Below, one piece after another: positions 9,999-38,390 of a stretch of DNA of 39,554 nt. Made by a program: the position numbers and the translations under genes. Source of the stretch: Nanobdellota archaeon (GTDB taxonomy: Archaea > Nanobdellota > Nanobdellia > Pacearchaeales > GW2011-AR1); assembly GCA_018817905.1 (NCBI GenBank), contig JAHISS010000107.1, positions 1 to 39,554 on the forward strand, in the 5' to 3' direction. The notes beneath the pieces are model-generated. The model searched no databases. It was not told the origin of the DNA and saw only the letters and a program-made list of their open reading frames with translations. How positions within the stretch are numbered: position 1 is the stretch's first letter; the number at the start of each line of letters is the position of its first letter.

Positions 9999-11393
9999 AT
10001 GAGAGTTTTACTGGTAAATGCTATATTTAGAAGAAAGCTTGGAGAGAGCAAAAGAATTTCAACTATTCTCCCACCGATTGGATTGGCCTATTTAGCAGCT
10101 GTTCTAAAAAAAGAAGGAATTAAAGTAACGGTGTTGGATATGAATGCTCTTAATATTGAGCCGAAAGACATTAGAAAGCATATTCTGAAGTATAATCCTG
10201 AAATTGTAGGATTTAGTGTTACAACCCCTGTAGCTCCCCAAGTGTTTGAGATGGCAAGTATTGTCAAAAAGATAAATCACAAGATAAAAACCGTTGTTGG
10301 CGGGCCTCATGTAACTGCTCTCCCTGAAGAAGCAATTAAGAAAGATTTTATAGATTTCATTGTAATTGGCGAGGGAGAGACAACTTTTCTGGAATTGATA
10401 AAAAATGTTGAAAAAGGTGAGCAATTTGAAAAAATAGATGGAATAATGTTCAGAAAAGGGACGAGAATAGTCAGAACAAAAGAGAGGGAAAAAATAAAAA
10501 ATCTAGATGAACTTCCATTTCCAGCTATAGAACTGCTGCCTATGGAGAGATATGTTTCAGCTGATTCTGAATATAAAAAATTTGCAACTATCTTAACTTC
10601 AAGAGGATGTCCTGCGAGGTGCATTTACTGCAATAAGCTTGTTTTTGGAAATACGTGCCACATGCGAAGCGCTAAGAACATAATAAAAGAAATAGATTCT
10701 TTAAAGAAGAATTATGGATATAAAGAATTTCACATATTAGATGATTTATTTACTGCGAACAGACAAAGAGTCGTTGACTTTTGTAATATTGTAATAAGAA
10801 GAGATATGAAAATAAGGTGGAAATGTGGGAATGGCGTGAGAGTTGGAACAGTTGACTTTGGATTGCTAAAACTCATGAAAAAAGCTGGATGCTATTCATT
10901 AAGTTATGGAATAGAATCTGGAAACCAGCAAATTCTTAATAATATGAGGAAGGGGCAAACATTAAAACAATGCAGAAATGCTGTTAAATGGACCATACGG
11001 GCAGGATTAACATGTGTTGGATTTTTCATGTTTGGAAATCTTGGAGAAAATGAAGAAACAATGAGAGAAACTTTAGAATTTGCAAAATCCCTAGATTTAG
11101 ACGTAGCACAGTTCCATATTCTTGTTCCGTATCCAGGAACTATTATAAGGGAGATTATAGAAAAAGAGGGGAAAATTTTTGAAAATGATTGGGGGGAGTA
11201 TGACAACTTGGTTGGGAAAGCTGTTTTTGAACATGGAGAGTTAAAAAAAGAGAGCATGGAAAAAATACACAAAGACGCATATAAAGAGTTTTATATGAGA
11301 CCAAGTTTCATAATAAAACAGATTTTCAAGAGAAGAAGTCTGCGTCAAATTAAAAATAGGATAAACGGATTCCTTACGTTGATTGAATACTAA
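9999..11393 (+). CDS. B12-binding-domain radical SAM enzyme (class B type), paralogue 1
   Basis: N-terminal Rossmann-like region (IVGFSVTT, VVGGPHVTALPEE, IGEGE) followed by TSRGCPARCIYC (CxxxCxxC, 10608..10631) and YGIESGN. The ORF track begins at 9924; GAGGGT lies before ATG 9999. Confidence 0.85.
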   Translation: MRVLLVNAIFRRKLGESKRISTILPPIGLAYLAAVLKKEGIKVTVLDMNALNIEPKDIRKHILKYNPEIVGFSVTTPVAPQVFEMASIVKKINHKIKTVVGGPHVTALPEEAIKKDFIDFIVIGEGETTFLELIKNVEKGEQFEKIDGIMFRKGTRIVRTKEREKIKNLDELPFPAIELLPMERYVSADSEYKKFATILTSRGCPARCIYCNKLVFGNTCHMRSAKNIIKEIDSLKKNYGYKEFHILDDLFTANRQRVVDFCNIVIRRDMKIRWKCGNGVRVGTVDFGLLKLMKKAGCYSLSYGIESGNQQILNNMRKGQTLKQCRNAVKWTIRAGLTCVGFFMFGNLGENEETMRETLEFAKSLDLDVAQFHILVPYPGTIIREIIEKEGKIFENDWGEYDNLVGKAVFEHGELKKESMEKIHKDAYKEFYMRPSFIIKQIFKRRSLRQIKNRINGFLTLIEY

Positions 11394-11394
11394 C

Positions 11395-12555
11395 ATGAAA
11401 AAGATAATCATACTATATGACTTCCTGAAAGAACTTGGGGGGTTAGAGCGGGTGATGTTTTTTCAGGCAAACGTCTTAAAAAAATTATATGATGTTGAAT
11501 TGCTATTTAGCTATGTTTCTGAAAAAGAAAAAGAGAGAATAGGAAAAGAATTTGCATTTAATGATTTTAGAAAGATCTCCCAGATTGGAAAGTCAAGAAA
11601 CGAAAATGTGCAGTTCTTTTCTACGCTTCTTTTCCCAGGCAAGCTGAAACAAAGAAAAGCTGATTTAATAATAAGCCATAGCTTCATGGCTTCAAGGATG
11701 GTTCATGTAAAGAAAAAAAACGAAAAAACAAAGTTTATCGCAATGATACACCACCCTCCGAATTTTCTTTATGAAAGAAATCTGAAGTGGGTCAATAATT
11801 CTTCGAGGTTTTTTGCTTATATTCTCGGATTGTTTTTTGGAGATATATTAAGAAGAGCTGACAGAAAATCTGTCAGGAATGCAGATAGCGTAATCGCTAA
11901 TAGCAACTACACAAGAAAAAGGATAAAAGAGATTTATGGCATAAACGCTGAGGTAATTTATCCGCCTATTTCAAACAAATTTGTGATAATTGACGAGAGA
12001 GTGGCAATAAAAATATTAAAAAAATTTGGAATAGAAAAAAGATTTATTCTTATGCATGGAAGAATGATAAAAGACAAGAGACCTGATTTGGGAGTTTTGG
12101 CTTTCTCTAAGATTAAAAATAAAGACATTGATTTTATCATTTCTGGGACAATTGAAGAGGAGAAAAGAATCAGAGAACTCGTCAATAAATTTGGAATAGA
12201 AAAAAGAGTAAAAATTGCCGGGAGAGTTTCTGAAGAACAACTTCTTGCCCTTTACAATGCTGCAGAATGTCTTATAATGCCCACTCCAAAAGAAGATTTT
12301 GGTATGACTACTGTTGAGGCGATTGCTTGTGGATGCCCTGTAATTGCTTGGAAAGACGGCGCTGGTCCTGAAGAGATAATAACTGAAGATCTGAATGGAC
12401 TGTTGGCGAGACCGTATGACATAGAAGATTTCAAAGAGAAAGTTGAAAAAAGCCTGGCAAGAAAATGGAACAAGAAAAAAGTTTCCCTTTCTTCAAGAAA
12501 ATTTTCTGAAAAAGAGATTGAAAAGCAATTGCTGAATTTGGTTGATAGGTTCTGA
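11395..12555 (+). CDS. GT4 (GT-B fold) glycosyltransferase
   Basis: C-terminal EDFGMTTVEAIACGCPVIAWKDGAGPEEII (E-x7-E type) motif. ATG 11395 lies just after the upstream stop. Confidence 0.8.
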   Translation: MKKIIILYDFLKELGGLERVMFFQANVLKKLYDVELLFSYVSEKEKERIGKEFAFNDFRKISQIGKSRNENVQFFSTLLFPGKLKQRKADLIISHSFMASRMVHVKKKNEKTKFIAMIHHPPNFLYERNLKWVNNSSRFFAYILGLFFGDILRRADRKSVRNADSVIANSNYTRKRIKEIYGINAEVIYPPISNKFVIIDERVAIKILKKFGIEKRFILMHGRMIKDKRPDLGVLAFSKIKNKDIDFIISGTIEEEKRIRELVNKFGIEKRVKIAGRVSEEQLLALYNAAECLIMPTPKEDFGMTTVEAIACGCPVIAWKDGAGPEEIITEDLNGLLARPYDIEDFKEKVEKSLARKWNKKKVSLSSRKFSEKEIEKQLLNLVDRF

Positions 12556-12563
12556 ATAAGAAA

Positions 12564-13409
12564 ATGGGAAAAATAAAAATTCCAGAAAAATTTGAAAAAG
12601 GGATAGTTACAGTTATAATTCCGACATACCATGCTGAAATGAATATTGAAAAATGCCTTAAGTCAATAAGAAATCAGACATACAGGAGGATAGAGATAAT
12701 AGTTGTTGACCAGACAAGCCCCGACGCCACTGTCAAAATTGCAAGGAAGTACTCCGATAAAATAATAATAATAGAAAAACCAAAGTTCTATTCCCCACCC
12801 TCTCACTCGAGGAACATAGGGGCCGCTGCTTCTAGAGGAGAGTTTATTGTTAATATCGATGCAGATATGGAGCTGGAGAAAACCTTAATAGAAAACTGCG
12901 TGAAGATTGCAAGAAAAAAAGAATGTGCTGGAGTGATAATACATGAAAAAGATGTGCCTCTCAACTTTTGGGCAAAGTGCAGAGCATTGGAGAAGGAGTG
13001 CATGATTAATGACCGTTTCTTTGAAGGGGTAAGATTTATTTCAAGAGAGGCATTCAGAAAAATCAAGGGTTATGACTCCAGTCTTGGAAGTGGGGAGGAC
13101 TGGGATTTACACGCGAGAATTAAAGAAACTGGAAAGATTTTTTATGCGGATTATTTTATTTTTCACCACACTGGCAAAAAACATTTAATTAAAAATTTTA
13201 GAAAGATGGTTGATTATGGAAGAACATTTGACAGATACATAAAAAAACATCCTGAACTTGCTAAGAAGCAGCTTACTATTTTCAGAGGAATGTATTTAAG
13301 AAACTGGAAAACACTTGTAAAAAAACCTATTCTTACTTTGGGGCTCGTAATACTCAAGCTTTCAGAGTTTGCTGGAGCGTTTATAGGAAAGATAATCGCT
13401 GGGAATTAA
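12564..13409 (+). CDS. GT2 (GT-A fold) glycosyltransferase
   Basis: VTVIIPTYHAEMNIEKCLKSIRNQTY, NIDADME and GSGEDWDL motifs. Confidence 0.8.
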   Translation: MGKIKIPEKFEKGIVTVIIPTYHAEMNIEKCLKSIRNQTYRRIEIIVVDQTSPDATVKIARKYSDKIIIIEKPKFYSPPSHSRNIGAAASRGEFIVNIDADMELEKTLIENCVKIARKKECAGVIIHEKDVPLNFWAKCRALEKECMINDRFFEGVRFISREAFRKIKGYDSSLGSGEDWDLHARIKETGKIFYADYFIFHHTGKKHLIKNFRKMVDYGRTFDRYIKKHPELAKKQLTIFRGMYLRNWKTLVKKPILTLGLVILKLSEFAGAFIGKIIAGN

Positions 13410-13519: not shown

Positions 13520-14314
13520 ATGAGACGATTTTTCCTTACAATGAAAAGTTTTTTGTGGAAACTAACTTTAAAGTACTTAGTCAATCCCAATAAACTTGTC
13601 AATATTCATGGGAATAAAATGTTTTTAGATTCAAGAGATTCATTATTACTTTCCATACGCAAAAATTATGAACCGAGACATGTTGCACTTATGAAGAGAA
13701 TAGTAAAACAAGGAGAAACCGTAGTTGATATTGGGGCCCATATTGGGTATTATACTCTTATTCTTGCAGAGACGGTTGGTCCAAAAGGAAAAGTATTTGC
13801 ATTCGAACCAAATCCAGAAAATTTTGAAGTATTGAAAAAAAATGTGGAAATTAATGGTTACAAAAATGTTATTCTGGAACAAAAAGCAGTTTCTAATAAG
13901 AATGGAAAAGCAAAATTTTATTTTTCTAAGATAAACAGTGGGGACGGAAAAATCTATGCTACAAAGGAAGAGAGAGGTAGTTGTGAGGTAAATTCTATAA
14001 AATTGGATGATTATTTTAAGAAAAAGAGAATAAAACCTTCTTTCTTTAAAATGGATATACAAGGCGCAGAGCCCAAAGCTTTTGAAGGCATGAAATGGAT
14101 ATTAGACAACCCTAGTTTAAAGTTTACTACAGAATTCCAGCCAGAAGCGATAGAATCTGCGGGATATAGCCCTAAAGAATTTTTAGACAGGATAAGAGAA
14201 GAAGGATTAAGTATATACGATTTAGGAAAAAAAGAGGTTATAAAAGATAACGATTCTTTAGTAGAATACTACAAATCTATAAACTACTTTACAACACTTT
14301 ATTGCTATAAATAA
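13520..14314 (+). CDS. FkbM-family SAM-dependent methyltransferase
   Basis: VVDIGAHIGYYTL, VFAFEPNPENFEVLKKNVEINGYKNV and FFKMDIQGAEPKA motifs typical of the FkbM family. Confidence 0.75.
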   Translation: MRRFFLTMKSFLWKLTLKYLVNPNKLVNIHGNKMFLDSRDSLLLSIRKNYEPRHVALMKRIVKQGETVVDIGAHIGYYTLILAETVGPKGKVFAFEPNPENFEVLKKNVEINGYKNVILEQKAVSNKNGKAKFYFSKINSGDGKIYATKEERGSCEVNSIKLDDYFKKKRIKPSFFKMDIQGAEPKAFEGMKWILDNPSLKFTTEFQPEAIESAGYSPKEFLDRIREEGLSIYDLGKKEVIKDNDSLVEYYKSINYFTTLYCYK

Positions 14315-15058
14315 TTATTTTTTCAGTAAGAACATTACAAGAATCTCTAAATTGGGATTATCATTAATTAAGTTTTGAATACTTGAAGGGTTTATTTCAA
14401 TAAAATGTTCTCCGTTTTTATAGAAGTATCTTTCCTCCATCTTTTTTAAATCAGAAATAAGCCAATCAAGTTCCTTCTTGCTGTAAATCCGAGTATGTCC
14501 ATTTTCAAGAATCTTTGCTTTGCCAGCAAGAGAGGTAGTAAGAATAATCTTCCCTTTTTTCTTAATCATTTTTTTCATTTTTTTCATCAACATCTTATCC
14601 TTTCTTCCTTCTGCTTTAGAACCATAATCCATGTTTAAACCGACGTGCTCTATAACTGATATGCAAGTAATTGCATCAAAGTAGTTGTCCGGAAAATCGA
14701 GATTCAATCCGTCTGCCTGGATGAACTTTAAATTTGGGTGTTTGAAGGGATAAGCGCGAGGGTCATTGCCATAGGTCTCATATCCTAAAGAAGCTATTTC
14801 TATGGGCATTATGCTATCAGAACATCCAACGTCAAGAATTTTTGCATTTTTATTCTTTGGGAGGTTTTGAAAAACAAATGGTCTTTCTAATACTCTTTCT
14901 TTAAAGCTCCATTCAAGAAGATTTAGTTTGGCAAGGATAATTTTCACGAATTCTACACCTGCAACAAAGAGGTCTCTAACTTTCTTAGGTTTGCAATAAA
15001 ATTTTATTGAATTGTTTACATAGAAGTTCTTAAGGTAGATTTTATCTTTTAGCGACAT
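14315..15058 (-). CDS. Class I SAM-dependent methyltransferase
   Basis: ILDVGCSDS (motif I), FDAITCISVIEHVGL and GKIILTT. Its stop directly abuts the stop of the convergent FkbM gene. Confidence 0.7.
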   Translation of the reverse strand: MSLKDKIYLKNFYVNNSIKFYCKPKKVRDLFVAGVEFVKIILAKLNLLEWSFKERVLERPFVFQNLPKNKNAKILDVGCSDSIMPIEIASLGYETYGNDPRAYPFKHPNLKFIQADGLNLDFPDNYFDAITCISVIEHVGLNMDYGSKAEGRKDKMLMKKMKKMIKKKGKIILTTSLAGKAKILENGHTRIYSKKELDWLISDLKKMEERYFYKNGEHFIEINPSSIQNLINDNPNLEILVMFLLKK

Positions 15059-15135: not shown

Positions 15136-16557
15136 ATGAAAATATTATTATTAAGCCCCCCGACAGAAAACTCTAGATTTCCTCCACTGGGGATTGCCTA
15201 CATTTCTTCTTTTCTTAATGCTAACGGACACGAAGCGGTGATAAAAGATGCGAATAATATTTCTGCTAAAGAGATTGTTAATTCTGTGAAAAAGTACGCC
15301 CCTGACATTGTAGGAATAACAATGAATACTACAAATAGATTTGTCGCCATAGATATTTTGAAGAAAGTCAAGAAACGGTATAATCTTCCTACAATTGCTG
15401 GAGGACCTCATGCTACAATAATGACAGATCAGTTATTGAAAAACTATCCCCATATAGATTACATAGTGAGAAACGAGGGAGAATTTGTCACATTGAATTT
15501 GCTAAATTCTCTTGAAAAGGGAAAAGATTTGGGGAATATTACGGGGCTATCTTACAGAAAGAATAATCAGGTGTTCCATAATGCAAGGGCAGAACCTATA
15601 AAAGACTTGGATATATTACCCTATCCAGATTATAATTTCTTTGATTTGAAAAACTACTCAAAAAATCCTGAGCATCCAAAAGAAATTTTAAAATTTCCTG
15701 TGGGCAGCATCATGTCTTCAAGAGGATGCCCGTATCATTGTATATTTTGTTCAACATCACAACTCTGGGGGCATAGAATAAGATTCAGAAAGCCAGAGTT
15801 TGTTGTTGACGAAATGCAAAACCTCCTAAAAGAGCATAACACAAGATACATTGTTTTTAACGATGATAATTTCACAGCTGATAGAAAAAGGGCGATTGAA
15901 ATATGCAAGGTTATAATTAAAAGGGGCTTGCAAAAAGAGATAACTTGGGCTTGCAGTTCAGAAGTTAACATAATAAACAGGGACCTTCTTGAGTGGTTGA
16001 AAAAAGCAGGATGTCATATGATAGAATATGGCGTGGAAGACCCTGGAGAAGAAGGAACAAGGTTTTTTAAAAAGGCGCATACTCAAAAGCAGTTGTTTGA
16101 AGCCTTCAAGTTAACTAATGAAATAGGATTAAAGTCGAGAAGCTTTGTTATCGTGGGGGGTGACCACGAGAGCAAGGAAAATATTGAGTTAAAAAAAAGG
16201 CTAATGGAAAAAATTAATCCAACTGCTACAACTGCTTCGTTGTTGCTTGCTTTTCCGGGGACAGAACTATTTGAAAGAGGGAAGCAGAGAGGGTTATGGG
16301 ACGATTCTATCTGGCTTCGGCCGTGTGTTGGAAAAAAATTTCATAATTATGTCCCAATTTATCATAGCGAGAATATGGACCTTAATGGACTATTTGAAGC
16401 TTCTGCTGACTTATACTACTGGTGGAATAGAAAAAAAGGAAGTTTTAGATTCAGGGAGCAGGCAGGAGTAGTTAAAGGGCTTATCAAAAGAAGAGATTTC
16501 TTAAAGATATACGCCATGGGAAAGAGCGTTATAAAAAGAAGCGTCAAAGGGTTATAA
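15136..16557 (+). CDS. B12-binding-domain radical SAM enzyme, paralogue 2
   Basis: IVGITMNT, IAGGPHATIMTDQ, SSRGCPYHCIFC and YGVEDPGEEG motifs; 473 aa. Confidence 0.85.
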   Translation: MKILLLSPPTENSRFPPLGIAYISSFLNANGHEAVIKDANNISAKEIVNSVKKYAPDIVGITMNTTNRFVAIDILKKVKKRYNLPTIAGGPHATIMTDQLLKNYPHIDYIVRNEGEFVTLNLLNSLEKGKDLGNITGLSYRKNNQVFHNARAEPIKDLDILPYPDYNFFDLKNYSKNPEHPKEILKFPVGSIMSSRGCPYHCIFCSTSQLWGHRIRFRKPEFVVDEMQNLLKEHNTRYIVFNDDNFTADRKRAIEICKVIIKRGLQKEITWACSSEVNIINRDLLEWLKKAGCHMIEYGVEDPGEEGTRFFKKAHTQKQLFEAFKLTNEIGLKSRSFVIVGGDHESKENIELKKRLMEKINPTATTASLLLAFPGTELFERGKQRGLWDDSIWLRPCVGKKFHNYVPIYHSENMDLNGLFEASADLYYWWNRKKGSFRFREQAGVVKGLIKRRDFLKIYAMGKSVIKRSVKGL

Positions 16558-18126: not shown

Positions 18127-18173
18127 TGTTAATCTAAACAAATAGAGTTTTTATGTATTTCTAAAGTCTATAT

Positions 18174-18186: not shown

Positions 18187-18207
18187 TGCCTTTTGTTTTG
18201 TGGGGGT

Positions 18208-18393
18208 ATGTCTAAAAAAATAAAGATTGACGAGGAGAAATGCATTGGCTGCGGTTTGTGTGCTGAGTTGGCTCCTAAGAATTTTGAAATGCGCGGCGAT
18301 AAAGCTATTGTGAAAAAAGCAGCTGTTGAAAAAGCAGACGACGTGAATGGGGCGGTTGAGTCTTGCGCAGTCGAAGCCATATCTGTTTCATAG
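18208..18393 (+). CDS. Small single-cluster ferredoxin (Pyrococcus-type)
   Basis: 61 aa: KIKIDEEKCIGCGLCAELAP...ESCAVEAI (CxxCxxC...C). GGGGGT lies before ATG 18208. Confidence 0.75.
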   Translation: MSKKIKIDEEKCIGCGLCAELAPKNFEMRGDKAIVKKAAVEKADDVNGAVESCAVEAISVS

Positions 18394-29201: not shown

Positions 29202-29205
29202 TTTG

Positions 29206-33097: not shown

Positions 33098-33570
33098 TTT
33101 ATCACTTTTAATTTCACATGAATTTCTTTAAAAACTCCGCGAATAACTAAACTTAACTTCCTTCTTAAAAACTTAGGAATATATACACCAAAATTTGGTG
33201 ATGGTTCAACTTCTAATTCGACAATTTCCCACCCTTTATTTTCTTCTCCCCAGTCTGTTACCGGCATTGTTAAATATTCAAATGTAGCTTCTGCAAAATA
33301 ACTAACATGCCCAAGCATACTAAATGAACCCTCATTATTAAAATGAGGTACATAAATCTCTATTATTCCATTAGTCTTACAAATCCTGTGTAATTCATTT
33401 AACACATTTTCTGTCCATCTTAAATGTTCTAATACATCTCTTGTAAAAATATAATCATAAGTATTATCCTTAATTGGATATGGAAATACCTCAAAATCAA
33501 AATCTTTTTTATCAAAATTATCAAACCCTTCCTTTATATCCAATCCGCATCCAAAATTTAACTTTTTCAT
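33094..33570 (-). CDS. Small class I SAM-dependent methyltransferase
   Basis: KLNFGCGLD, YDYIFTRDVLEHL and NGIIEIYVPH; 158 aa. Confidence 0.65.
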   Translation of the reverse strand: MKKLNFGCGLDIKEGFDNFDKKDFDFEVFPYPIKDNTYDYIFTRDVLEHLRWTENVLNELHRICKTNGIIEIYVPHFNNEGSFSMLGHVSYFAEATFEYLTMPVTDWGEENKGWEIVELEVEPSPNFGVYIPKFLRRKLSLVIRGVFKEIHVKLKVIK

Positions 33571-33686
33571 TTTTTTCGGTAAATGTTCCTCCCTCTAAAT
33601 TGTTTTGGTATTTCCTTTTTATATTCGCCGTAATAAACTTCCTTGTGTGTTTGTTCTGTTCCCATATTCGTTGTTTGTTCTTTCAT
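33567..33686 (-). CDS. Possible 39-aa upstream ORF coupled to the methyltransferase / radical SAM pair
   Basis: ATG 33684..33686. It translates to MKEQTTNMGTEQTHKEVYYGEYKKEIPKQFRGRNIYRKK, and its TGA overlaps the methyltransferase ATG (ATGA). It is below the ORF-track cutoff and no family was recognised. Confidence 0.2.
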   Translation of the reverse strand: MKEQTTNMGTEQTHKEVYYGEYKKEIPKQFRGRNIYRKK

Positions 33687-33791
33687 TTTAACGCCCCATT
33701 CCCTTTTCAGACATATTACTTATATTCTCTAATCAGCTCGGGTTTGTTTCTACTCGGCTATTTATATGCTCTTTCTCATTCCATTCTTTAT

Positions 33792-34721
33792 TTAGTCCTC
33801 ATTTCCATTTTTTAACAAATCTCTCATATTAATTAATTCAATTTTTCCTTTTTTCTTTAACTTAAGAACAGTATTTAAAATTATCTTTAAATTTTTCAAA
33901 CTTTTAAAGGTGAAGTCATGGCAACAAAGACAATATACTGCGTTTTTATCACGTTTATTTGCATTTTCTTCTATATCTTTTAATATTCTTTTTATCCTGC
34001 CTGGCTTACTTGTTCCATCAAAAGTAGATGAAACATGCACAAAGGTTAATCCGTATCTTTTAAATGGAGGAATAACTTTAAATTTGTGAGTCATTTTTTT
34101 TGGAAAATCCTCCAGCCCGGTATACCTTATAATCTTAAAACCATTTTTTCTTAAAGCAGAATATAGGACAGAAGGATTAGACTTGTCTTCAGTTATATTA
34201 AACGGAGAAGAACATGAAACAGGGCTTACTCCTATTTTATTTGCTGCATTTTTTGCAGCGCGTATACCTGAATCAACGATTTTTGATTCTTCTAATGGCC
34301 AACACTCATGTGCAAAACCATGGATTCCCAAATCAAAAAGGGGATTGTTTTTCATCTCTTTTTCTATAAAGTCTCCAAGGTAGAGTCCCGGATATTCAGA
34401 ATAGCCTGATTTAGGATCCCAGTAATACCAATTTTTTTTAAAAAACCATTTTGCTTTGGGTTTTAATTCATTAAAATGCGGCCATCCATTACAAGACTTT
34501 AAATAAAGATGCCCAGTAATGTTAAATGTTGCAGGAATTTGATTTTCCTTAAAAAATGTTACTAGATTTTTAAGGCCTTGGCGATTTTTAGCATAGATAA
34601 ATTTACCTCTTATTTTATTAAGGCGCCATTTTATTTGATAAATTTTAGAAAAACTATAAAACGGATTTTGAATATACTTCCAAAAGTCTGCTTCCGTATC
34701 GACGCTTAATAAGAACCTCAT
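33792..34721 (-). CDS. Polysaccharide deacetylase (CE4/NodB-like)
   Basis: FLLSVDTEADF, PATFNITGHL and DLGIHGFAHE (metal-binding Asp/His pattern); 309 aa. Confidence 0.65.
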   Translation of the reverse strand: MRFLLSVDTEADFWKYIQNPFYSFSKIYQIKWRLNKIRGKFIYAKNRQGLKNLVTFFKENQIPATFNITGHLYLKSCNGWPHFNELKPKAKWFFKKNWYYWDPKSGYSEYPGLYLGDFIEKEMKNNPLFDLGIHGFAHECWPLEESKIVDSGIRAAKNAANKIGVSPVSCSSPFNITEDKSNPSVLYSALRKNGFKIIRYTGLEDFPKKMTHKFKVIPPFKRYGLTFVHVSSTFDGTSKPGRIKRILKDIEENANKRDKNAVYCLCCHDFTFKSLKNLKIILNTVLKLKKKGKIELINMRDLLKNGNED

Positions 34722-34742
34722 TTTGGAGGGAGAACAAATATA

Positions 34743-34750
34743 TTTTTAAA
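34743..34750. promoter_or_regulatory. Shared central TATA-like octamer of a 50-nt divergent spacer
   Basis: TTTTTAAA, within ATATATTTTTAAATATATA, lies exactly 21 nt from the start codons at 34721 (-) and 34772 (+). Confidence 0.45.
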
Positions 34751-34771
34751 TATATAGTCTTACTTTAGATT

Positions 34772-36070
34772 ATGAAGTGGAAAGGATTTAAAGACATACA
34801 AGCCACAATTATTATAGATCTTAGTTTGTCTGAAGCGGAGCTTTTAAAAAACGCAGATAGAAGCAGGAGAAAGAATGTAAAAAAGGCTGAAAATGTGGGG
34901 CTTTTATTTCAAGAGGTAAAAACAAAAGAAGAGTTAGACAAATGGTATCTAATCTATCAAAAAGTGTGGAAAGCGGGGGGAATAGAATCGCAAGATATCA
35001 GTGAATTTAAAAAAGAGAATTATAAATTAGTTGTAGTAAAAAAAAGGGGCAAAATCCTGGGCGGTGGGATTATTGAAGAATTAAAAGATAAAATTGTCTT
35101 TAAGGCGTTTGCTTCTCTAATTGAGTTCCAAGACTTGAGGGTGAATGACTTTTTATATTGGAATGCTATTTTATACGGAAAAAAACTTGGGAAAAAATAT
35201 GTGGATCTTGGGGGCTGGCAGATTAAATCTCGAGGGCATCTTGCTGGAATCAATGAATTTAAAGAAAAATGGGGTGGAAAGGTTGTATATTACTATATTT
35301 ACAGCAAAAACCCAGCATACATTCTTGGAAGAAAAGCGATTAGGAACTTCGCATTTGGAAGATGGTTCTGGGATAGAATCAAAGGAAGACCTATTCAAAG
35401 AAGAAGTAAACATAAAAAAAACAAAAACGAATATGAGAATAAAGAATCAATTCAGCATTTCTCTACAATTAATAAAATTTTTGAAAAAGAAAAATATCTA
35501 ATTGAAAAGTATTTCAAAGGGAAAATTTTAGATTTGGGTTGTGGATGTGGAAGAACAACTAAAGAATTGTTCGATAGGGGTTATGATGTCGTGGGGGTAG
35601 AAATAGTTGAAGATATGGTTAAAGCGGCTAAAGACAATTTTCCTCAAATAAATTTTGAAATAGGCGATGCCTGCGATTTAAAATTCTCCAATGAGAGTTT
35701 TGATATTGTCTTTTTTTCTTACAATGGATTAGATTACATCTATCCCGAAAAAGAGAGAATTCGAGCATTGGAAGAAATTGAAAGAGCTTTAAAAAAGGGG
35801 GGATATTTTATTTATAGCTCCCATGACCCTTCTGTTTTAGTAAAAAAATTTAGACCTAAGTTTATTTTTAGAAATCTCATGAAGGGATCCATTTTTTCAA
35901 GATACAAATATGAACAGCAACCTTTCGGTGGATTCTATACATACTATGGTAATTTGAAGAAACAGAGGGATCTGATTGAAAAAAATACCTCCTTGAAGTA
36001 TGTTGAAACTAAGAGAGATAACCCAAAAGATTTACATCCTTATTATGTTTTTAAGAAAAATGGAAAATAA
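34772..36070 (+). CDS. Fusion protein: N-terminal FemAB/GNAT-like acyl- or aminoacyl-transferase domain plus C-terminal class I SAM methyltransferase
   Basis: Residues about 1-200 resemble the FemAB/BioF2-like GNAT fold (LSEAELLKNADRSRRKNVKKA, YWNAILYGKKLGKKYVDLGG, NEFKEKWGG). A K-rich linker follows. Residues about 250-432 show ILDLGCGCGRTT, VVGVEIVEDMV and FDIVFFSYNGLDY. Confidence 0.6.
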   Translation: MKWKGFKDIQATIIIDLSLSEAELLKNADRSRRKNVKKAENVGLLFQEVKTKEELDKWYLIYQKVWKAGGIESQDISEFKKENYKLVVVKKRGKILGGGIIEELKDKIVFKAFASLIEFQDLRVNDFLYWNAILYGKKLGKKYVDLGGWQIKSRGHLAGINEFKEKWGGKVVYYYIYSKNPAYILGRKAIRNFAFGRWFWDRIKGRPIQRRSKHKKNKNEYENKESIQHFSTINKIFEKEKYLIEKYFKGKILDLGCGCGRTTKELFDRGYDVVGVEIVEDMVKAAKDNFPQINFEIGDACDLKFSNESFDIVFFSYNGLDYIYPEKERIRALEEIERALKKGGYFIYSSHDPSVLVKKFRPKFIFRNLMKGSIFSRYKYEQQPFGGFYTYYGNLKKQRDLIEKNTSLKYVETKRDNPKDLHPYYVFKKNGK

Positions 36071-36638
36071 AGTGCCTCTTGGGATGAAGGATAGACCTAA
36101 GCAGATTCTTAACTTGGTTCCGAAAGATGTTAAAACTGTCTTAGACATTGGATCAGTTAAACCAAGTCTGTTCTCAGAGAGATATAAAACGTTAACGATG
36201 GATTATTCAAACGCCGATATAATGATGGATTTAAACGGGCTGCAAAAAATTCCCCTTCGAAGTAAGTCTATAAATTTAGTTGTCTTGTCTCAAATATTAG
36301 AGCATCTTTTTGAATTTGAAAACCTTATAGCTGAAGCAAAAAGAATTTCTAATAAATATATTTTGGTAGGACTACCCAACGAGTTTACAATAGATAATAG
36401 AATAAAATTTTTGTTTGGTGTACCCCCCAGTCTGAAAGGATACGACAAAAATGGACATAAATATTTGTTTGATATCCAAAGTGCGGAAGAATTGATTCAG
36501 CTTTTTTTTAAAGGTTATTTAAAGAAATACTTCCTTTTTGGGGTAACTGGGGGGAGATATCTACCCCTCGCGACGAGAAGGATTTTAGCAAGATTTATTC
36601 CTGGACTTTTTGCTGCACAGATATATTATTTAATATAA
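36060..36638 (+). CDS. Probable class I SAM-dependent methyltransferase
   Basis: Starts at MENKVPLG (ATG 36060), overlapping the upstream gene by 11 nt. Motifs: TVLDIGS, INLVVLSQILEHL and KYILVGLPNE. Confidence 0.5.
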   Translation: MENKVPLGMKDRPKQILNLVPKDVKTVLDIGSVKPSLFSERYKTLTMDYSNADIMMDLNGLQKIPLRSKSINLVVLSQILEHLFEFENLIAEAKRISNKYILVGLPNEFTIDNRIKFLFGVPPSLKGYDKNGHKYLFDIQSAEELIQLFFKGYLKKYFLFGVTGGRYLPLATRRILARFIPGLFAAQIYYLI

Positions 36639-36734
36639 AATTGAAAGTACGTGCTAAACTTTATAAGCTTCTTTTTTATTAGCTTACAAAGAATAAAAAC
36701 AGTAACTCAAATGGAATCCTTTAAAATGCCGTTA

Positions 36735-36869
36735 ATAAAGAACGATTGTCTTAAAGATAAGGCTATCTCTTCGGGAGTATCCAGGGAAATTAAGAAAAAA
36801 CATCCTGATTCAAAAATAACTGTGCTTTGTTCATTAATTAATAAGGAACTGATTGAAAAGAATAAAAAT
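36735..36869 (+). pseudogene. Stub of a GT9 gene 5' end; direct repeat of 38446..38580
   Basis: Encodes IKNDCLKDKAISSGVSREIKKKHPDSKITVLCSLINKELIEKNKN, against IRNDCIGDMVISSGVFREIKKKHPDSKITVLCSSINKELIEKNKN in the intact GT9. The run 36792..36834 matches 38503..38545 perfectly over 43 nt. The stub is in frame with the downstream radical SAM ORF. Confidence 0.7.
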
Positions 36870-36875
36870 AAAAAG

Positions 36876-38390
36876 ATGACCAAAATCGTACTAATTTCAC
36901 TTTATGATACCGCTTCTATTGGGCCTAGAATTCTGCATAAAGTTCTTGATGAAAAAGGGTATGAAGTGCATAGTATCTTCTTTAAATCTGGAAACTTGAC
37001 AAATGTGACAAAAAAGGAAGTTAAACTTTTGCTGGATAAAATTAACGAGATTAAACCTCAATTGATTGGCATTAGTTTAAGATCGAGATGTTTTAAAATT
37101 GCAACCAGATTAACAAAAGATATCAGAAAAGAAATAGATACCAAGATAATTTGGGGAGGGGTGCATCCCACCATAAAGCCAATGGACTGCTTAAAGTTTG
37201 CAGATATGATCTGTATAGGTGAGGGAGAAGAAGCATTGGTGAATCTTGCTGATTTAATAGATAAAAAGAAGAGTATTGAGAACGTTAAGAATATTTGGAT
37301 AAAATTTGGCAAAAAGATAATTAAAAATGATTTAGCACATTTAGAAGAGGACTTAGATAAAATTCCCTTTCCTGATTTTTCTGATTCAAACAAGTACTAT
37401 GTAGAAGATAATAAATGTTCTTGTGAGAATATATTCCCAGATCATCAAATAGTTTATACAATTATGACCACAAGAGGTTGTCCTTTTTCCTGTTCTTTTT
37501 GTAATGGGGGATCTTTGAGGGAGATTTATCACGGCAAAGGTAGGTATCTCAGAAGGAGGAGTGTGGAAAATGTGATAGAAGAATTAGTACTAGCAAAGAA
37601 AAGTTGGCCCTCAATCAAAAAAGTATATTTCATTGATGATGTTTTTTCTTATGATCTTGAATGGATTAAAAAGTTTAATCCATTATATAAGAGACATATT
37701 GGTCTTCCTTTTTATTGCTATGTTCACCCCGTTTATGTTAAGGATGAAACTATAAAAGTTCTGAAAGATATGGCATTATACGAAGTTAATATTGGAATAC
37801 AAAGTGGTTCTGAAAAGCTTCGAAAGGAAATTTATCATCGACCAGAATCTAATGAACAAATCGTCAATTCCATTAAAATCCTGAATAAATATAAGATTAG
37901 GGCTGTTTGCGATTTAATACTGGGAAATCCTTATGAAACTGAATCTGACAAGAAAGAAAACCTTAATTTACTGGTGAAATTGCCTAAGCCAATAATTTTG
38001 CTTACGTATAACCTCCTATTCTTCCCTAACAAGCTTACTGAAATGGCATTAGAAGACGGACTTATCAGTGAAAAAGACCTTGAAGAAAATAAAGAAAGAG
38101 TATACCACAGATGGGATGATAAATTTTTACAGAATTTTTCAAATACAGACTTGCTTTGGAATGGCCTTTACTATCTTGCATCAAAAGGATATCCTGATTG
38201 GTTAATTAAATGGTGTTATAAATCAATGAAAAAAAATCCTGCTATTTTAGTCTCATTAGTAAAGGGGATTGAAAGAAAGAACTTGCTTATATCCTCAGTT
38301 CCAAAGATAATGGGATATGTTAAAAGGAAGCAGTTTAAATTATTATTTGCTAAACTAAAGAGAAATTTAAGACTAACATCTCTTCGTTAA
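36876..38390 (+). CDS. B12-binding-domain radical SAM enzyme, paralogue 5
   Basis: MTKIVLISLYD..., IIWGGVHPTIKPMDC, ICIGEGEEA, TTRGCPFSCSFC and NIGIQSGSEKL motifs. The ORF track extends upstream to 36651 through the GT9 stub. The start at 36876 gives 504 aa, in line with the other paralogues. Confidence 0.85.
   Translation: MTKIVLISLYDTASIGPRILHKVLDEKGYEVHSIFFKSGNLTNVTKKEVKLLLDKINEIKPQLIGISLRSRCFKIATRLTKDIRKEIDTKIIWGGVHPTIKPMDCLKFADMICIGEGEEALVNLADLIDKKKSIENVKNIWIKFGKKIIKNDLAHLEEDLDKIPFPDFSDSNKYYVEDNKCSCENIFPDHQIVYTIMTTRGCPFSCSFCNGGSLREIYHGKGRYLRRRSVENVIEELVLAKKSWPSIKKVYFIDDVFSYDLEWIKKFNPLYKRHIGLPFYCYVHPVYVKDETIKVLKDMALYEVNIGIQSGSEKLRKEIYHRPESNEQIVNSIKILNKYKIRAVCDLILGNPYETESDKKENLNLLVKLPKPIILLTYNLLFFPNKLTEMALEDGLISEKDLEENKERVYHRWDDKFLQNFSNTDLLWNGLYYLASKGYPDWLIKWCYKSMKKNPAILVSLVKGIERKNLLISSVPKIMGYVKRKQFKLLFAKLKRNLRLTSLR

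What the first reader, a model, noticed from the sequence alone, without database searches (positions are those of the whole stretch)
9999..38390. Six radical SAM enzymes (five B12-binding paralogues) embedded in an AglB-linked glycan-assembly island
Seen in sequence: five ORFs of about 465-517 aa (9999..11393 +, 15136..16557 +, 25567..27099 -, 31544..33097 -, 36876..38390 +) share one architecture. Each has an N-terminal Rossmann-like, cobalamin-binding-type region ending in GGPH/GGVH/GGPF plus (I/V)GE(G/A)E, followed by (S/T/G)RGCPxxCxxC. A sixth ORF (29206..30126 -) has CNAKCKFC plus a Cys-rich SPASM/twitch-like tail. These genes are not grouped together. They are interleaved with GT2/GT4/GT9 glycosyltransferases, five SAM methyltransferases, a nucleotide-sugar epimerase, a deacetylase and two ferredoxins, directly downstream of aglB, the GlcNAc-1-P transferase and the flippase. 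Established knowledge: class B (cobalamin) radical SAM enzymes methylate or rearrange unactivated carbons, including sugar carbons in aminoglycoside and phosphonate pathways (GenK, GenD1, Fom3). Characterised archaeal Agl pathways use glycosyltransferases plus ordinary SAM methyltransferases. Inference: this locus may build a surface or N-linked glycan that is tailored by radical chemistry several times over (C-methylation, epimerisation or deoxygenation). To my knowledge that combination has not been described. Paralogues 3 and 5 are closest to each other (GGVHxTIxPxDC, IKN(L/I)W, IGIQ(G/S)SE, NPYE, K(I/L)PKP).
Basis: partly seen in the sequence, partly recalled or inferred. Interest (0 to 1): 0.85.

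Follow-up and report, generated by a model that had tools for sequence, protein, structure and literature searches.

The report
Radical SAM enzymes in archaeal glycan locus
A tiny symbiotic archaeon (Pacearchaeota type) has five cobalamin-type radical SAM enzymes and one SPASM-type enzyme scattered through its surface-sugar assembly genes, and this pairing recurs across the whole lineage and beyond, pointing to an uncharacterised kind of glycan tailoring.

Summary
All five ORFs carry B12-binding plus radical SAM domains, and the sixth carries radical SAM plus SPASM. They are interleaved with GT2, GT4 and GT9 genes downstream of AglB, a phosphosugar transferase and a flippase.

The locus is not a one-off island. 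Paralogue 3 ("R3") has orthologues at 65-79% identity in 46 Pacearchaeota/Woesearchaeota species representatives. It is fixed in a syntenic block: GT4, R3, (QueC), GT2, (NDT-like), GT9, (HldE), GT-C. R3 is far more conserved than its neighbours (median 72% versus 28-58%). The other four are deep paralogues (24-38% identity) from fast-diversifying families. Relatives of paralogues 1 and 4 also sit in glycan loci in Asgard, Chloroflexi and a large-genome archaeon.

Natural fusions support sugar or lipid-linked-glycan substrates: B12-rSAM with a Wzx-type flippase, with a DegT aminotransferase, and with a methyltransferase.

None of the six reaches the cut-off of any characterised family. Two confident models show the class B fold, but AprD4 (non-methylating) matches equally well, so the chemistry is unresolved. 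I found no publication describing this association.

Verdict: a real feature, a new variant of a known enzyme kind, with the function inferred only.

The parts
3789..6536 (+). AglB/STT3 oligosaccharyltransferase (915 aa, WWDYG motif)
   Evidence: PF02516 at 65.6 bits. The WWDYG motif is visible in the translation. The same SpoIIM-STT3-GPT-flippase order is seen in L064.
6533..7543 (+). Polyprenyl-phosphate phosphosugar transferase (Glycos_transf_4, AglH/WecA type)
   Evidence: PF00953 at 108 bits.
7540..8748 (+). Wzx-type flippase (Polysacc_synt)
   Evidence: PF01943 and PF13440.
8804..9598 (+). GT2_a, of the polyprenyl-phosphate sugar synthase type, directly upstream of rSAM 1
   Evidence: PF00535. 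PDB sequence hits: dolichol-P-mannose synthase 5mlz (E 8e-10), ArnC 9hwj (E 2e-7) and GtrB.
9999..11393 (+). B12-domain radical SAM 1 (accessory, AglB-proximal)
   Evidence: PF02310 at 96 bits and PF04055 at 71 bits. Best family scores are HpnJ 224 and BchE 212, both below cut-off. Model pLDDT is 94, matching TsrM, AprD4, OxsB, CysS and TokK. Homologues run from 65% down to 40% identity and sit in glycan loci.
11383..13409 (+). GT4_a (11383-12555) and GT2_b (12564-13409)
   Evidence: Pfam.
13520..15058 (.). FkbM methyltransferase (13520-14314, + strand) and class I methyltransferase (14315-15058, - strand)
   Evidence: PF05050 and PF13489/PF08241.
15136..16557 (+). B12-domain radical SAM 2 (accessory)
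   Evidence: Pfam. BchE scores 222, below cut-off. Orthologues at 63-64% identity occur in four Pacearchaeota/Woesearchaeota representatives. The L069 context has a second B12-rSAM but no glycosyltransferase.
16552..18141 (-). Multi-pass membrane protein, a PMT_2-like GT-C; distal end of the conserved block
   Evidence: No direct Pfam hit. It is homologous to PMT_2-annotated genes in L003 (37%, E 2e-56) and L004. A homologue is present in 30 of 46 R3 loci.
18193..18393 (+). Ferredoxin 1 (single 4Fe-4S type)
   Evidence: Fer4_13 at 51.9 bits.
18405..19802 (-). HldE-like bifunctional heptose-7-P kinase / heptose-1-P adenylyltransferase
   Evidence: NF008454 at 439 bits (cut-off 521); domain II at 180 against 181.5. 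PfkB and CTP_transf_like domains.
20039..20917 (.). Truncated GT2 (20039-20608, - strand) and ferredoxin 2 (20693-20917, + strand)
   Evidence: The fragment covers only the C-terminal two-thirds of a GT2 and is 83% identical to a GT2 in L008. Fer4_13 at 56 bits.
21073..22221 (+). IS5-type insertion sequence interrupting the conserved block
   Evidence: DUF772 and DDE_Tnp_1 transposase at 21139-22068. 19-nt terminal inverted repeats, 89% complementary.
22264..23277 (-). GT9_a (heptosyltransferase family), part of the conserved block
   Evidence: PF01075 at 72.6 bits. A homologue is present in 23-24 of 46 R3 loci.
23328..23741 (+). NDT-like protein (nucleoside 2-deoxyribosyltransferase family), conserved on the opposite strand within the block
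   Evidence: PF05014 at 53.6 bits. Present in 21 of 46 loci.
23725..24633 (-). GT2_c, the fixed downstream partner of R3
   Evidence: PF00535, PF13641 and PF13632. It is the first same-strand classified gene downstream of R3 in 38 of 40 loci, with median identity 58%.
24875..25570 (+). QueC (7-cyano-7-deazaguanine synthase type), convergent with R3 and overlapping its end by 4 nt
   Evidence: PF06508 at 169 bits. TIGR00364 at 140 bits against a cut-off of 150. Present in 26 of 46 loci.
25567..27099 (-). B12-domain radical SAM 3 ('R3'), the lineage-wide core enzyme
   Evidence: Pfam. More than 120 clusters at 71-80% identity. 46 GTDB species representatives at 65-79% identity. Median identity 72% against 28-58% for its neighbours. 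Model pLDDT is 92, matching TsrM, MgmA, CysS, TokK, AprD4 and OxsB.
27125..29285 (-). GT4_b (27125-28249, directly upstream of R3) and a weak GT1-like gene (28263-29285)
   Evidence: Pfam. A GT4 ends less than 400 bp upstream of R3 in 24 of 39 loci.
29206..30126 (-). Radical SAM / SPASM (twitch-like) enzyme
   Evidence: PF04055 at 56 bits and PF13186 at 48 bits. The closest solved relative is BtrN, E 1.6e-11. SPASM rSAMs occur in 20 of 46 R3 loci.
30245..31252 (-). SDR nucleotide-sugar epimerase/dehydratase
   Evidence: PF16363 and PF01370. GalE at 188 and dTDP-glucose dehydratase at 181, both below cut-off.
31544..33097 (-). B12-domain radical SAM 4 (accessory; true start probably M20 at 33040)
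   Evidence: Pfam. TIGR04013 at 110 bits against 251. Homologues are at most 57% identical and sit in glycan loci L067 and L068.
33094..36638 (.). Methyltransferase (33094-33570, -), weak deacetylase-like ORF (33792-34721, -), FemAB-like + methyltransferase (34772-36070, +), weak methyltransferase-like ORF (36000-36638, +)
36876..38390 (+). B12-domain radical SAM 5 (accessory; singleton at the 50% identity level), bracketed by 114-bp direct repeats
   Evidence: Pfam. The best full-length relatives are 44-46% identical among 1.84 billion representatives. Direct repeats at 36756-36869 and 38467-38580 are 91% identical.
38392..39429 (+). GT9_b
   Evidence: PF01075 at 69 bits.

Best explanation
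The window is the main cell-surface glycan assembly locus of a Pacearchaeota-type DPANN archaeon. It probably builds the lipid-linked oligosaccharide used for AglB N-glycosylation and related envelope glycans. The six radical SAM proteins are glycan-tailoring enzymes.

The locus has three parts:
(a) An initiation module: AglB, a phosphosugar transferase, a flippase, and a Dol-P-sugar-synthase-like GT2, followed by rSAM 1.
(b) A lineage-wide core block on the minus strand: GT4, R3, GT2, GT9, HldE and a PMT_2-like GT-C. It builds a conserved structure that probably contains heptose.
(c) Variable, lower-GC flanks carrying rSAM 2, 4 and 5, the SPASM enzyme, an SDR epimerase and O/N-methyltransferases.

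Proposed mechanism (inferred). The CX3CX2C [4Fe-4S] cluster is reduced, plausibly by the two local ferredoxins. It cleaves SAM to a 5'-deoxyadenosyl radical, which abstracts hydrogen from an unactivated sugar carbon. The sugar is carried on a polyprenyl phosphate/diphosphate or on a nucleotide. In the B12-domain enzymes, methylcobalamin then most likely transfers a methyl group to the substrate radical, giving a C-methyl sugar as MoeK5, GenK and GenD1 do. The SPASM enzyme most likely oxidises or epimerises a sugar carbon, as BtrN does. The modified sugar is then extended by the flanking GTs, flipped, and transferred by AglB or by the GT-C.

Shown: domain architecture, motifs, fold, conserved synteny and natural fusions. 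Inferred: the sugar substrate (about 0.65) and methylation as the outcome (about 0.4).
For: Architecture and motifs.

Fold: models with pLDDT 92 and 94 match cobalamin-bound TsrM, TokK, OxsB, CysS and MgmA at E 1e-17 to 1e-27.

Synteny of R3: 46 species representatives carry it. GT2 is the first same-strand classified gene downstream in 38 of 40 loci. A GT4 lies directly upstream in 24 of 39. GT2, GT9 and GT-C all lie downstream in 18 of 31. At least one extra B12-rSAM is present in 30 of 46, and a SPASM rSAM in 20 of 46.

AglB linkage is conserved. L064 has SpoIIM-STT3-GPT-flippase-GT2-GT2-GT4-B12-rSAM. AglB lies next to R3 in L025, L035, L045 and L046.

Relatives outside DPANN also sit in glycan loci: Helarchaeota L065 (NeuB, GT4, PMT_2), Chloroflexi L066 (DegT, flippase, GT2, PMT_2, YfhO), and L068 on a 2.9 Mb archaeal chromosome (seven GT genes and a flippase).

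Natural fusions: DegT aminotransferase + B12-rSAM (L006); B12-rSAM + Polysacc_synt flippase (P0487) and B12-rSAM + methyltransferase (P0385).

GT2_a, next to rSAM 1, resembles Dol-P-Man synthase and ArnC. The SPASM enzyme's nearest solved relative is BtrN.

Precedents for class B enzymes acting on sugar-bearing substrates are MoeK5, GenK, Fms7 and HpnJ (PMC9204698).
Against: There is no biochemical or glycan-structure evidence, and none of the six is orthologous to a characterised enzyme.

AprD4, which I recall is a non-cobalamin sugar diol dehydratase, matches the models as well as or better than the cobalamin enzymes (TM 0.76 for rSAM 1). Cobalamin use and methylation are therefore unproven.

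Cobalamin biosynthesis is rarely complete in Woesearchaeota (PMC8421398), and I did not test uptake.

R3's conservation (72% median, higher than QueC at 51% or AglB at 43%) is atypical for a glycan-tailoring gene.

R3 abuts QueC in 26 of 46 loci.

The one usable locus for a paralogue 2 orthologue (L069) shows no GT within the sequence available.

Confidence: 0.6

Rival explanations
1. Same glycan or glycolipid context, but some or all of the B12-domain enzymes are not methylases. They would catalyse ring contraction to a carbocycle (as HpnJ and calditol synthase do on a lipid-linked hexose or hexosamine), 1,2-diol dehydration leading to deoxygenation (as AprD4 does, without cobalamin), or epimerisation. 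For R3 in particular, the fixed GT2 + R3 pair would parallel HpnI (GT2) + HpnJ, which act on a lipid-anchored sugar head group.
For: rSAM 1 and 2 score best against the non-methylases HpnJ and BchE. AprD4 is the top TM-score match for rSAM 1 (0.76/0.77) and the best PDB sequence hit for rSAM 2 and 5. HpnJ and Cds are proposed radical ring-contraction enzymes acting on lipid-linked sugars (PMC13459092; PMC9204698). GT2_c gives weak hits to HpnI, PgaC and NodC-type membrane GT2s. A weak deacetylase-like ORF is present. Limited cobalamin supply in these organisms would favour cobalamin-independent chemistry.
Against: All scores lie far below the HpnJ and AprD4 cut-offs: 224 against 578, and 92 against 500. 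AprD4 sequence alignments cover only the radical SAM core. The N-terminal domains align with those of TokK, OxsB and TsrM and pass the PF02310 cut-off. According to the reviews, most characterised class B enzymes are methylases.
Confidence: 0.22
2. The enzymes modify proteins or peptides rather than sugars. They could methylate or cross-link S-layer, pilin or other secreted proteins that are also glycosylated, or mature a RiPP, and are co-located only because both processes decorate the cell surface.
For: Class B and SPASM radical SAM enzymes are common peptide modifiers. There are partial hits to RiPP C-methyltransferase families (rSAM_ocin_1 at 115 bits, ApyD at 177 bits) and to the MCR glutamine methylase MgmA. 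A 48-aa ORF (9595-9741) lies just upstream of rSAM 1.
Against: All those scores are below cut-off. No peptidase, RRE domain or export ABC transporter was found in the window. The fusion partners are a flippase, a sugar aminotransferase and a methyltransferase, not peptide-handling domains. The context is dominated by GTs in every lineage sampled.
Confidence: 0.08
3. They are membrane-lipid tail modifiers (GrsA/B-, Gmm- or ladderane-type) that remodel scavenged lipids.
For: R3's best NCBIfam hit is the ladderane-associated lipid B12-rSAM (98 bits). GrsA/B are cobalamin-type radical SAM enzymes. Woesearchaeia MAGs carry some lipid-modifying homologues (PMC11868695). R3's housekeeping-level conservation would suit a membrane role.
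Against: The score is 98 bits against a cut-off of 360. These DPANN lineages are reported to lack lipid biosynthesis. No isoprenoid or lipid genes occur in any of the roughly 60 loci examined, whereas GTs are ubiquitous.
Confidence: 0.04
4. R3 is functionally tied to QueC and the NDT-like gene (7-deazapurine or nucleoside metabolism), and its GT neighbours are incidental synteny.
For: QueC is convergent with R3 and overlaps it in 26 of 46 loci. The NDT-like gene is conserved in 21 of 46. The preQ0 pathway needs a radical SAM enzyme (QueE). A queuosine pathway has been reported in some DPANN (PMC8204110).
Against: QueC and the NDT-like gene are on the opposite strand. Loci that lack them keep the R3-GT2 pair (for example L008, L010, L014, L020). 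R3 is a 510-aa B12-domain enzyme, whereas QueE (from my own knowledge) is small and has no B12 domain. No QueD or QueE is seen nearby.
Confidence: 0.03

Closest known systems
MoeK5, GenK, GenD1, Fms7 (class B radical SAM enzymes of moenomycin and aminoglycoside pathways)
   Same: They share the B12-binding + radical SAM architecture. They act on sugar-bearing substrates, and their genes are interleaved with glycosyltransferases. From my own knowledge, they C-methylate sugar carbons, and in moenomycin the sugar sits on a lipid-phosphate-linked saccharide. The review places MoeK5 and GenK/Fms7 in the main class B cluster alongside HpnJ, which is the best family hit for rSAM 1.
   Different: Those enzymes belong to secondary-metabolite clusters of actinomycetes. 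The proteins here sit in primary cell-envelope and N-glycosylation loci of archaea, several per locus, and one (R3) is a lineage-wide core gene.
HpnI-HpnK-HpnJ (hopanoid cyclitol ether pathway) and calditol synthase Cds
   Same: A GT2 puts a hexosamine or hexose on a lipid, and a radical SAM enzyme (class B in the case of HpnJ) then rearranges the sugar. This parallels the fixed GT2_c + R3 pair and the GT2_a + rSAM 1 pair. rSAM 1's best family score is to HpnJ.
   Different: The HpnJ score is 224 bits against a cut-off of 578 (R3 scores 78), so they are not members. There are no hopanoid or GDGT genes. The context includes AglB, a flippase, GT4, GT9 and a GT-C.
AprD4 (radical SAM 1,2-diol dehydratase of apramycin)
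   Same: It is the best or an equal-best structural match (TM 0.76 to rSAM 1). It is the best PDB sequence hit for rSAM 2 and 5. It acts on an aminoglycoside sugar.
   Different: From my own knowledge, AprD4's N-terminal domain does not bind cobalamin. Sequence alignments cover only the radical SAM core. The NF033070 score is at most 92 bits against a cut-off of 500.
Characterised archaeal Agl N-glycosylation pathways (Haloferax, Methanococcus, Sulfolobus)
   Same: AglB, a phosphosugar transferase, a flippase, GT2/GT4 genes, Dol-P-sugar synthase-like GT2s and SAM O-methyltransferases are all clustered.
   Different: To my knowledge, and in the searched literature, the described Agl pathways contain no radical SAM enzymes. 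HldE and GT9 (bacterial LPS-type heptose genes) are also unusual for archaea.
Arn pathway logic (ArnC GT2, ArnD modification on Und-P-sugar, ArnT GT-C)
   Same: A polyprenyl-P-sugar synthase-like GT2, a modifying enzyme and a PMT_2-family GT-C are encoded together. GT2_a matches ArnC and Dol-P-Man synthase.
   Different: The modifying enzyme here would be a radical SAM enzyme, not a deformylase. This is an analogy only; I did not test it.
BtrN (twitch-domain radical SAM dehydrogenase of butirosin)
   Same: It is the closest solved relative of the sixth enzyme (E 1.6e-11). The match lies mainly in the auxiliary-cluster domain.
   Different: The sequence match is short and partial. The protein reaches the Pfam SPASM cut-off but no NCBIfam equivalog cut-off.

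Membership tests
Class B (cobalamin-dependent) radical SAM enzymes | Radical SAM core with a CX3CX2C [4Fe-4S] motif (PF04055) | tested here: met
   PF04055 scores 48-80 bits in all five, above the 29.5 cut-off. CX3CX2C lies at residues 204, 198, 200, 215 and 202.
Class B (cobalamin-dependent) radical SAM enzymes | N-terminal Rossmann-type B12-binding domain (PF02310) | tested here: met
   PF02310 scores 52-96 bits, above the 32.1 cut-off, in all five. No DxHxxG motif is present; from my own knowledge that is usual for this class.
Class B (cobalamin-dependent) radical SAM enzymes | Three-dimensional fold like cobalamin-bound members | tested here: met
   R3 (pLDDT 92) and rSAM 1 (pLDDT 94) match TsrM, TokK, OxsB, CysS and MgmA at E 1e-17 to 1e-27 with TM 0.59-0.74. 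Paralogues 2, 4 and 5 were not modelled.
Class B (cobalamin-dependent) radical SAM enzymes | Actual cobalamin binding and dependence | not testable with these tools
   AprD4, which has the same fold but (from my own knowledge) no cobalamin, matches equally well. Cobalamin biosynthesis is rarely complete in related genomes. Uptake genes were not surveyed.
HpnJ (TIGR03471), BchE (TIGR02026), ladderane lipid rSAM (TIGR04072), MJ_1487 family (TIGR04013), PhpK (TIGR04479), HpnR, BzaD, MCR Gln methylase, AprD4, TIGR04295 B12_rSAM_oligo | Whole-protein score at or above the curated NCBIfam cut-off | tested here: not met
   Best scores against cut-offs: HpnJ 224/578, BchE 222/481, TIGR04072 159/360, TIGR04013 126/251, PhpK 168/600, AprD4 92/500, TIGR04295 93/400.
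GenK, GenD1, Fom3, MoeK5, GrsA/B, Cds, Tes | Phylogenetic placement within the characterised clade | not tested
   No models or sequences of these enzymes were available in the tools. There is only an indirect link through the review's similarity network.
SPASM/twitch radical SAM enzymes | Radical SAM core plus a C-terminal Cys-rich auxiliary-cluster domain (PF13186) | tested here: met
   PF04055 at 56 bits and PF13186 at 48 bits (cut-off 21.5). CNAKCKFC plus C-terminal cysteines. BtrN matches at E 1.6e-11. No NCBIfam equivalog cut-off is reached.
Archaeal AglB-dependent N-glycosylation locus | STT3/AglB with WWDYG, a polyprenyl-P phosphosugar transferase, a flippase and GTs encoded together | tested here: met
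   The same layout is seen in L064. Whether the product is N-linked was not testable.
ADP-heptose pathway (HldE + GT9) | HldE equivalog score and a GT9 heptosyltransferase | tested here: inconclusive
   HldE scores 439 against 521; domain I 320 against 345; domain II 180 against 181.5. GT9 passes Pfam (73 bits) but scores only 57-62 bits against LPS heptosyltransferase models. No GmhA or GmhB lies in the window, although SIS, GHMP-kinase and HAD genes occur in L003, L004 and L006.

The most novel reading that the evidence does not exclude
B12-domain radical SAM enzymes may form a large, unrecognised class of cell-surface glycan tailoring enzymes. They would be used across archaea (DPANN, Asgard, methanogen-like lineages) and bacteria (Chloroflexi and others), and would diversify in the same way glycosyltransferases do. 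Within Pacearchaeota and Woesearchaeota, one of them (R3, with its fixed GT2 partner and a GT-C) would make a radical-modified sugar, either C-methylated or carbocyclic, that is a universal and probably essential envelope component. In that case envelope and N-glycan synthesis in these ultra-small symbionts would depend on cobalamin scavenged from hosts or neighbours.
Probability: 0.35. Interest if true: 0.8.

Novelty: new variant of a known kind. Interest (0 to 1): 0.66.

Why it matters
Characterised archaeal and bacterial surface-glycan pathways rely on glycosyltransferases, SDR enzymes, aminotransferases and ordinary SAM methyltransferases. Class B radical SAM enzymes are known to act on sugars only in antibiotic and hopanoid pathways.

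If the inference holds, radical chemistry on unactivated sugar carbons is a routine part of envelope glycan assembly in a major uncultured archaeal lineage, and it occurs in other phyla too. [quoted passage not shown] It would predict unusual C-branched, deoxy or carbocyclic sugars on DPANN cell surfaces, the interface with their hosts. It would also predict a cobalamin dependency in organisms that rarely encode cobalamin synthesis.

R3 is a practical entry point. It is 65-79% identical across 46 species, models with high confidence, and has defined partner genes for reconstitution.

Tried and rejected
- Family assignment: none of the six proteins reached any NCBIfam equivalog cut-off.
- Pattern-based scans of GTDB representatives found no close relatives for rSAM 1, rSAM 5 or the SPASM enzyme. 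So there is no context survey for rSAM 5 or the SPASM enzyme beyond distant SPASM paralogues (about 26% identity) in the R3 loci.
- PDB sequence searches gave nothing for GT2_c or the GT-C. The GT-C assignment therefore rests on transitive homology to PMT_2-annotated genes.
- I tested whether R3 divergence tracks neighbour divergence, to separate vertical inheritance from horizontal spread. There was no positive correlation (rho -0.47 to -0.04). I judged this uninformative because every comparison is to the window and R3 spans only 65-79%.
- No tRNA and no Rfam family was found in the window.
- Eight of the nine literature searches combined radical SAM or cobalamin terms with glycan, AglB, DPANN, Pacearchaeota or O-antigen terms; the ninth addressed cobalamin supply in DPANN. 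None found a paper describing the association. One search was too broad to be useful.
- Rejected readings: recent local duplication of the five paralogues (24-38% identity); a unique or mobile 'island' (the central block is syntenic in dozens of species); lipid-tail and RiPP roles (see the rival explanations).
- The L069 context of a paralogue 2 orthologue did not show GTs. I kept this as a counter-example rather than explaining it away.

Full report
OBSERVATION. Pfam places a B12-binding domain (PF02310, 52-96 bits) and a Radical_SAM domain (PF04055, 48-80 bits) above cut-off in all five 464-517 aa proteins. The 306-aa protein has Radical_SAM plus SPASM. The quoted motifs are all present: GGPH/GGVH/GGPF, (I/V)GE(G/A)E in four of the five, (S/G/T)RGC-CX3CX2C, and CNAKCKFC with a Cys-rich tail. 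Paralogues 3 and 5 are the closest pair at 38% identity; every other pair is 24-30%. These are therefore ancient paralogues, not a recent local expansion.

The neighbours are largely as described. They include AglB/STT3 with WWDYG, a Glycos_transf_4 phosphosugar transferase, a Polysacc_synt flippase, GT2, GT4 and GT9 genes, four firm methyltransferases plus one below threshold, an SDR epimerase/dehydratase, and two Fer4_13 ferredoxins. The 'deacetylase' is only weakly supported (14 bits).

ORGANISM. Best hits carry the labels Candidatus Pacearchaeota, Nanoarchaeota or Woesearchaeota. Paralogue 4 is identical to a protein of a 'Nanoarchaeota archaeon' MAG. The closest species representative for paralogue 3 is Ca. 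Pacearchaeota RIFOXYC1_FULL_38_15, at 79%. The window is a metagenomic DPANN contig.

A CORE ENZYME IN A CONSERVED BLOCK. Paralogue 3 (R3, 25567-27099, minus strand) behaves unlike the others.
- It has more than 120 clusters at 71-80% identity over its full length, and orthologues at 65-79% in 46 GTDB species representatives.
- Classifying the flanking ORFs with the window's own proteins shows a recurrent order: GT4, R3, QueC (opposite strand), GT2, NDT-like (opposite strand), GT9, sometimes HldE, then GT-C.
- GT2 is the first same-strand classified gene downstream of R3 in 38 of 40 loci with enough sequence. A GT4 ends within 400 bp upstream in 24 of 39. GT2, GT9 and GT-C all lie downstream in 18 of 31.
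- The window keeps exactly this order on its minus strand, from 28249 down to 16552. The only interruption is a 1.15-kb IS5-type element with 19-nt inverted repeats, a second ferredoxin gene and a truncated GT2, inserted between GT9 and HldE.
- R3 is much more conserved than its partners. Median identities are 72% for R3, 58% for GT2_c, 51-52% for QueC, HldE and the NDT-like gene, 45% for GT9, 43% for AglB, and 28-30% for GT4 and the GT-C.
- The block has the GC content of the housekeeping end of the contig (0.36-0.37). The flanks holding paralogues 1, 2, 4 and 5 are lower (0.31-0.35).
So the region is a conserved core with variable flanks, not a uniform island.

ACCESSORY ENZYMES.
- Paralogue 1's homologues fall smoothly from 65% to 40% identity and reach Helarchaeota and Chloroflexi. 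In a Nanoarchaeota genome the 60% homologue sits in SpoIIM-STT3-GPT-flippase-GT2-GT2-GT4-B12-rSAM, the same layout as the window. The Helarchaeota and Chloroflexi homologues lie among NeuB, UDP-GlcNAc 2-epimerase, GT4, GT2, DegT, flippase, PMT_2 and YfhO genes.
- Paralogue 4's homologues are at most 57% identical. They lie in a DPANN glycan locus with three B12-rSAMs, and in a cluster of GT2, GT4 and flippase genes on a 2.9 Mb archaeal chromosome.
- Paralogue 2 has orthologues at 63-64% in four representatives. The only long context (L069) has a second B12-rSAM and a GNAT, but no GT within the stretch available. I keep this as a counter-example.
- Paralogue 5 has no full-length relative above 46% identity among 1.84 billion representatives. 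It still belongs to a radiation of 2,871 clusters at E <= 1e-30. It is bracketed by 114-bp direct repeats of the GT9 5' end, which suggests it arrived as a cassette.
- Across 63 fetched loci there are 121 B12-rSAM ORFs in 37 clusters at >=40% identity. One cluster of 53 contains R3, and the rest are small. Of the 46 R3 loci, 30 carry one to four further B12-rSAMs and 20 carry a SPASM rSAM.

FUSIONS. Natural fusions tie the family physically to glycan machinery:
- a DegT sugar aminotransferase fused to a B12-rSAM (870 aa, L006);
- a B12-rSAM fused to a Polysacc_synt flippase (P0487, 938 aa);
- a B12-rSAM fused to a class I methyltransferase (P0385);
- a tandem double B12-rSAM (P0409).

FAMILY AND FOLD. 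None of the six reaches the cut-off of any NCBIfam model. The best scores are HpnJ 224/578 and BchE 222/481 for paralogues 1 and 2, ladderane lipid rSAM 98/360 for R3, and the MJ_1487 family 110-116/251 for paralogues 4 and 5. AlphaFold models of R3 (pLDDT 92.3) and paralogue 1 (pLDDT 94.1) match cobalamin-bound TsrM, TokK, OxsB, CysS and MgmA (E 1e-17 to 1e-27, TM 0.59-0.74). AprD4, a sugar 1,2-diol dehydratase that I recall does not bind cobalamin, matches as well or better (TM 0.76). Sequence alignments to AprD4 cover only the radical SAM core, whereas those to TokK, OxsB and TsrM include the N-terminal domain. The class B architecture is therefore established, but cobalamin use is not. The SPASM enzyme's closest solved relative is BtrN. 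GT2_a, next to paralogue 1, resembles dolichol-P-mannose synthase and ArnC.

MECHANISM. I conclude that these are glycan-tailoring radical SAM enzymes acting on polyprenyl-phosphate-linked or nucleotide-linked sugars. C-methylation through methylcobalamin is the single most likely outcome, by analogy with MoeK5 and GenK. Ring contraction (HpnJ or Cds type) and deoxygenation (AprD4 type) are serious alternatives. The two ferredoxins are plausible reductants. The layout of a Dol-P-sugar-synthase-like GT2, then an rSAM, with a GT-C nearby resembles ArnC-ArnD-ArnT logic, but that is an analogy only. Peptide, lipid-tail and 7-deazapurine roles are less likely, for the reasons given under the rival explanations.

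NOVELTY. Searches combining radical SAM with Pacearchaeota, DPANN, archaea, AglB, glycosyltransferase or O-antigen returned no paper describing this association. A 2026 review of B12-dependent radical SAM enzymes has no occurrence of glycan, polysaccharide, glycosyl or sugar. DPANN and Woesearchaeota genomics papers do not mention radical SAM enzymes or glycosyltransferases. From memory, NCBIfam curators named one family 'B12_rSAM_oligo' (TIGR04295) for its link to a polysaccharide-type cassette. The window's proteins are not members (at most 93 bits against a cut-off of 400). The enzyme class is known, so this is a new biological setting for it rather than a new kind of system.

LIMITS. The inference rests entirely on genomic context and structure prediction. 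The literature library does not cover subscription journals. I had no sequences of GenK, MoeK5, GrsA/B or Cds for a phylogeny. Cobalamin uptake was not surveyed, and biosynthesis is reported to be rarely complete in Woesearchaeota.

Noticed in passing
window 1-139 and 39414-39552: The two contig ends are a 93% identical inverted repeat. Each holds about 70 nt of shared upstream sequence plus the first ~23 codons of an outward-reading ORF (MKTKCQFCKKLSAVKQGYRKNKV..., with a zinc-finger-like N-terminus that looks like a transposase start). The assembly probably broke in two inverted copies of a repeated element, so the 39-kb segment is bounded by them.
   Followed up: partly
window 36756-36869 and 38467-38580: These are 114-bp direct repeats, 91% identical, derived from the 5' end of the GT9_b gene. 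They bracket rSAM 5 with a 1711-bp period. The upstream copy is an in-frame GT9 remnant fused to the long ORF 36651-38390. It looks like a scar from cassette insertion or duplication.
   Followed up: partly
window 20039-22221: An intact IS5-type element (inverted repeats at 21073-21091 and 22203-22221), a second ferredoxin gene, and an N-terminally truncated GT2 are inserted between GT9_a and HldE, inside the otherwise conserved block. The 5' region of the second ferredoxin gene is 76% identical to that of ferredoxin 1. The truncated GT2 is 83% identical to the GT2 of L008 at 13692-14258.
   Followed up: partly
window 23328-23741 and 24875-25570: QueC and an NDT-like (nucleoside 2-deoxyribosyltransferase family) gene are conserved on the opposite strand inside the glycan block, in 26 and 21 of 46 species. 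QueC overlaps the 3' end of R3 by 4 nt. Whether this reflects function or only frozen synteny is unknown.
   Followed up: partly
window 18405-19802, 22264-23277, 38392-39429: A bacterial LPS-type ADP-heptose enzyme (HldE-like, 439 bits) and two GT9 heptosyltransferase-family genes lie in an archaeal AglB locus. Related genomes instead carry a GDP-heptose-like gene set (SIS isomerase, GHMP kinase, HAD phosphatase, NTP transferase) at the same place (L003, L004, L006).
   Followed up: partly
L006 4153-6765; P0487; P0385; P0409: Domain fusions of B12-rSAMs: with a DegT aminotransferase (870 aa), with a Polysacc_synt flippase (938 aa), with a class I methyltransferase (961 aa), and a tandem double B12-rSAM (961 aa).
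   Followed up: partly
window 24630-24824: A 64-aa ORF with weak KOW / IF5A-N-like similarity lies between QueC and GT2_c. It is conserved at about 58% identity in 14 of 46 R3 loci.
   Followed up: no
window 2276-2608 and the 83-aa ORF upstream (L001 923-1174): A PemK/MazF-type toxin with a probable antitoxin lies next to the pentose-phosphate genes (RpiB, Rpe, PRPP synthetase).
   Followed up: no
window 2796-3737; L064 1-851; L035: A SpoIIM-like membrane protein lies immediately upstream of AglB, both in the window and in a Nanoarchaeota genome with only 43-60% identical locus proteins. This is a conserved but unexplained partner of AglB.
   Followed up: no
L024; L026 and L053 (same contig); L051: Some genomes carry two R3 copies (L024), or R3 plus a 52-53% identical sister paralogue about 20 kb away (contig CAYHEN010000001.1).
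   Followed up: no
window-wide: GC content separates the conserved block (18-26 kb, 0.36-0.37, like the housekeeping end) from the flanks that hold rSAM 1 and 2 (0.33-0.35) and the SPASM gene, rSAM 4 and rSAM 5 (0.31-0.32).
   Followed up: no
46 R3 loci: R3 identity to the window does not correlate positively with the identity of neighbouring genes (Spearman rho -0.47 to -0.04). This may reflect a star-like sampling of lineages, paralogous neighbours, or exchange of R3 between lineages. It is unresolved.
   Followed up: partly
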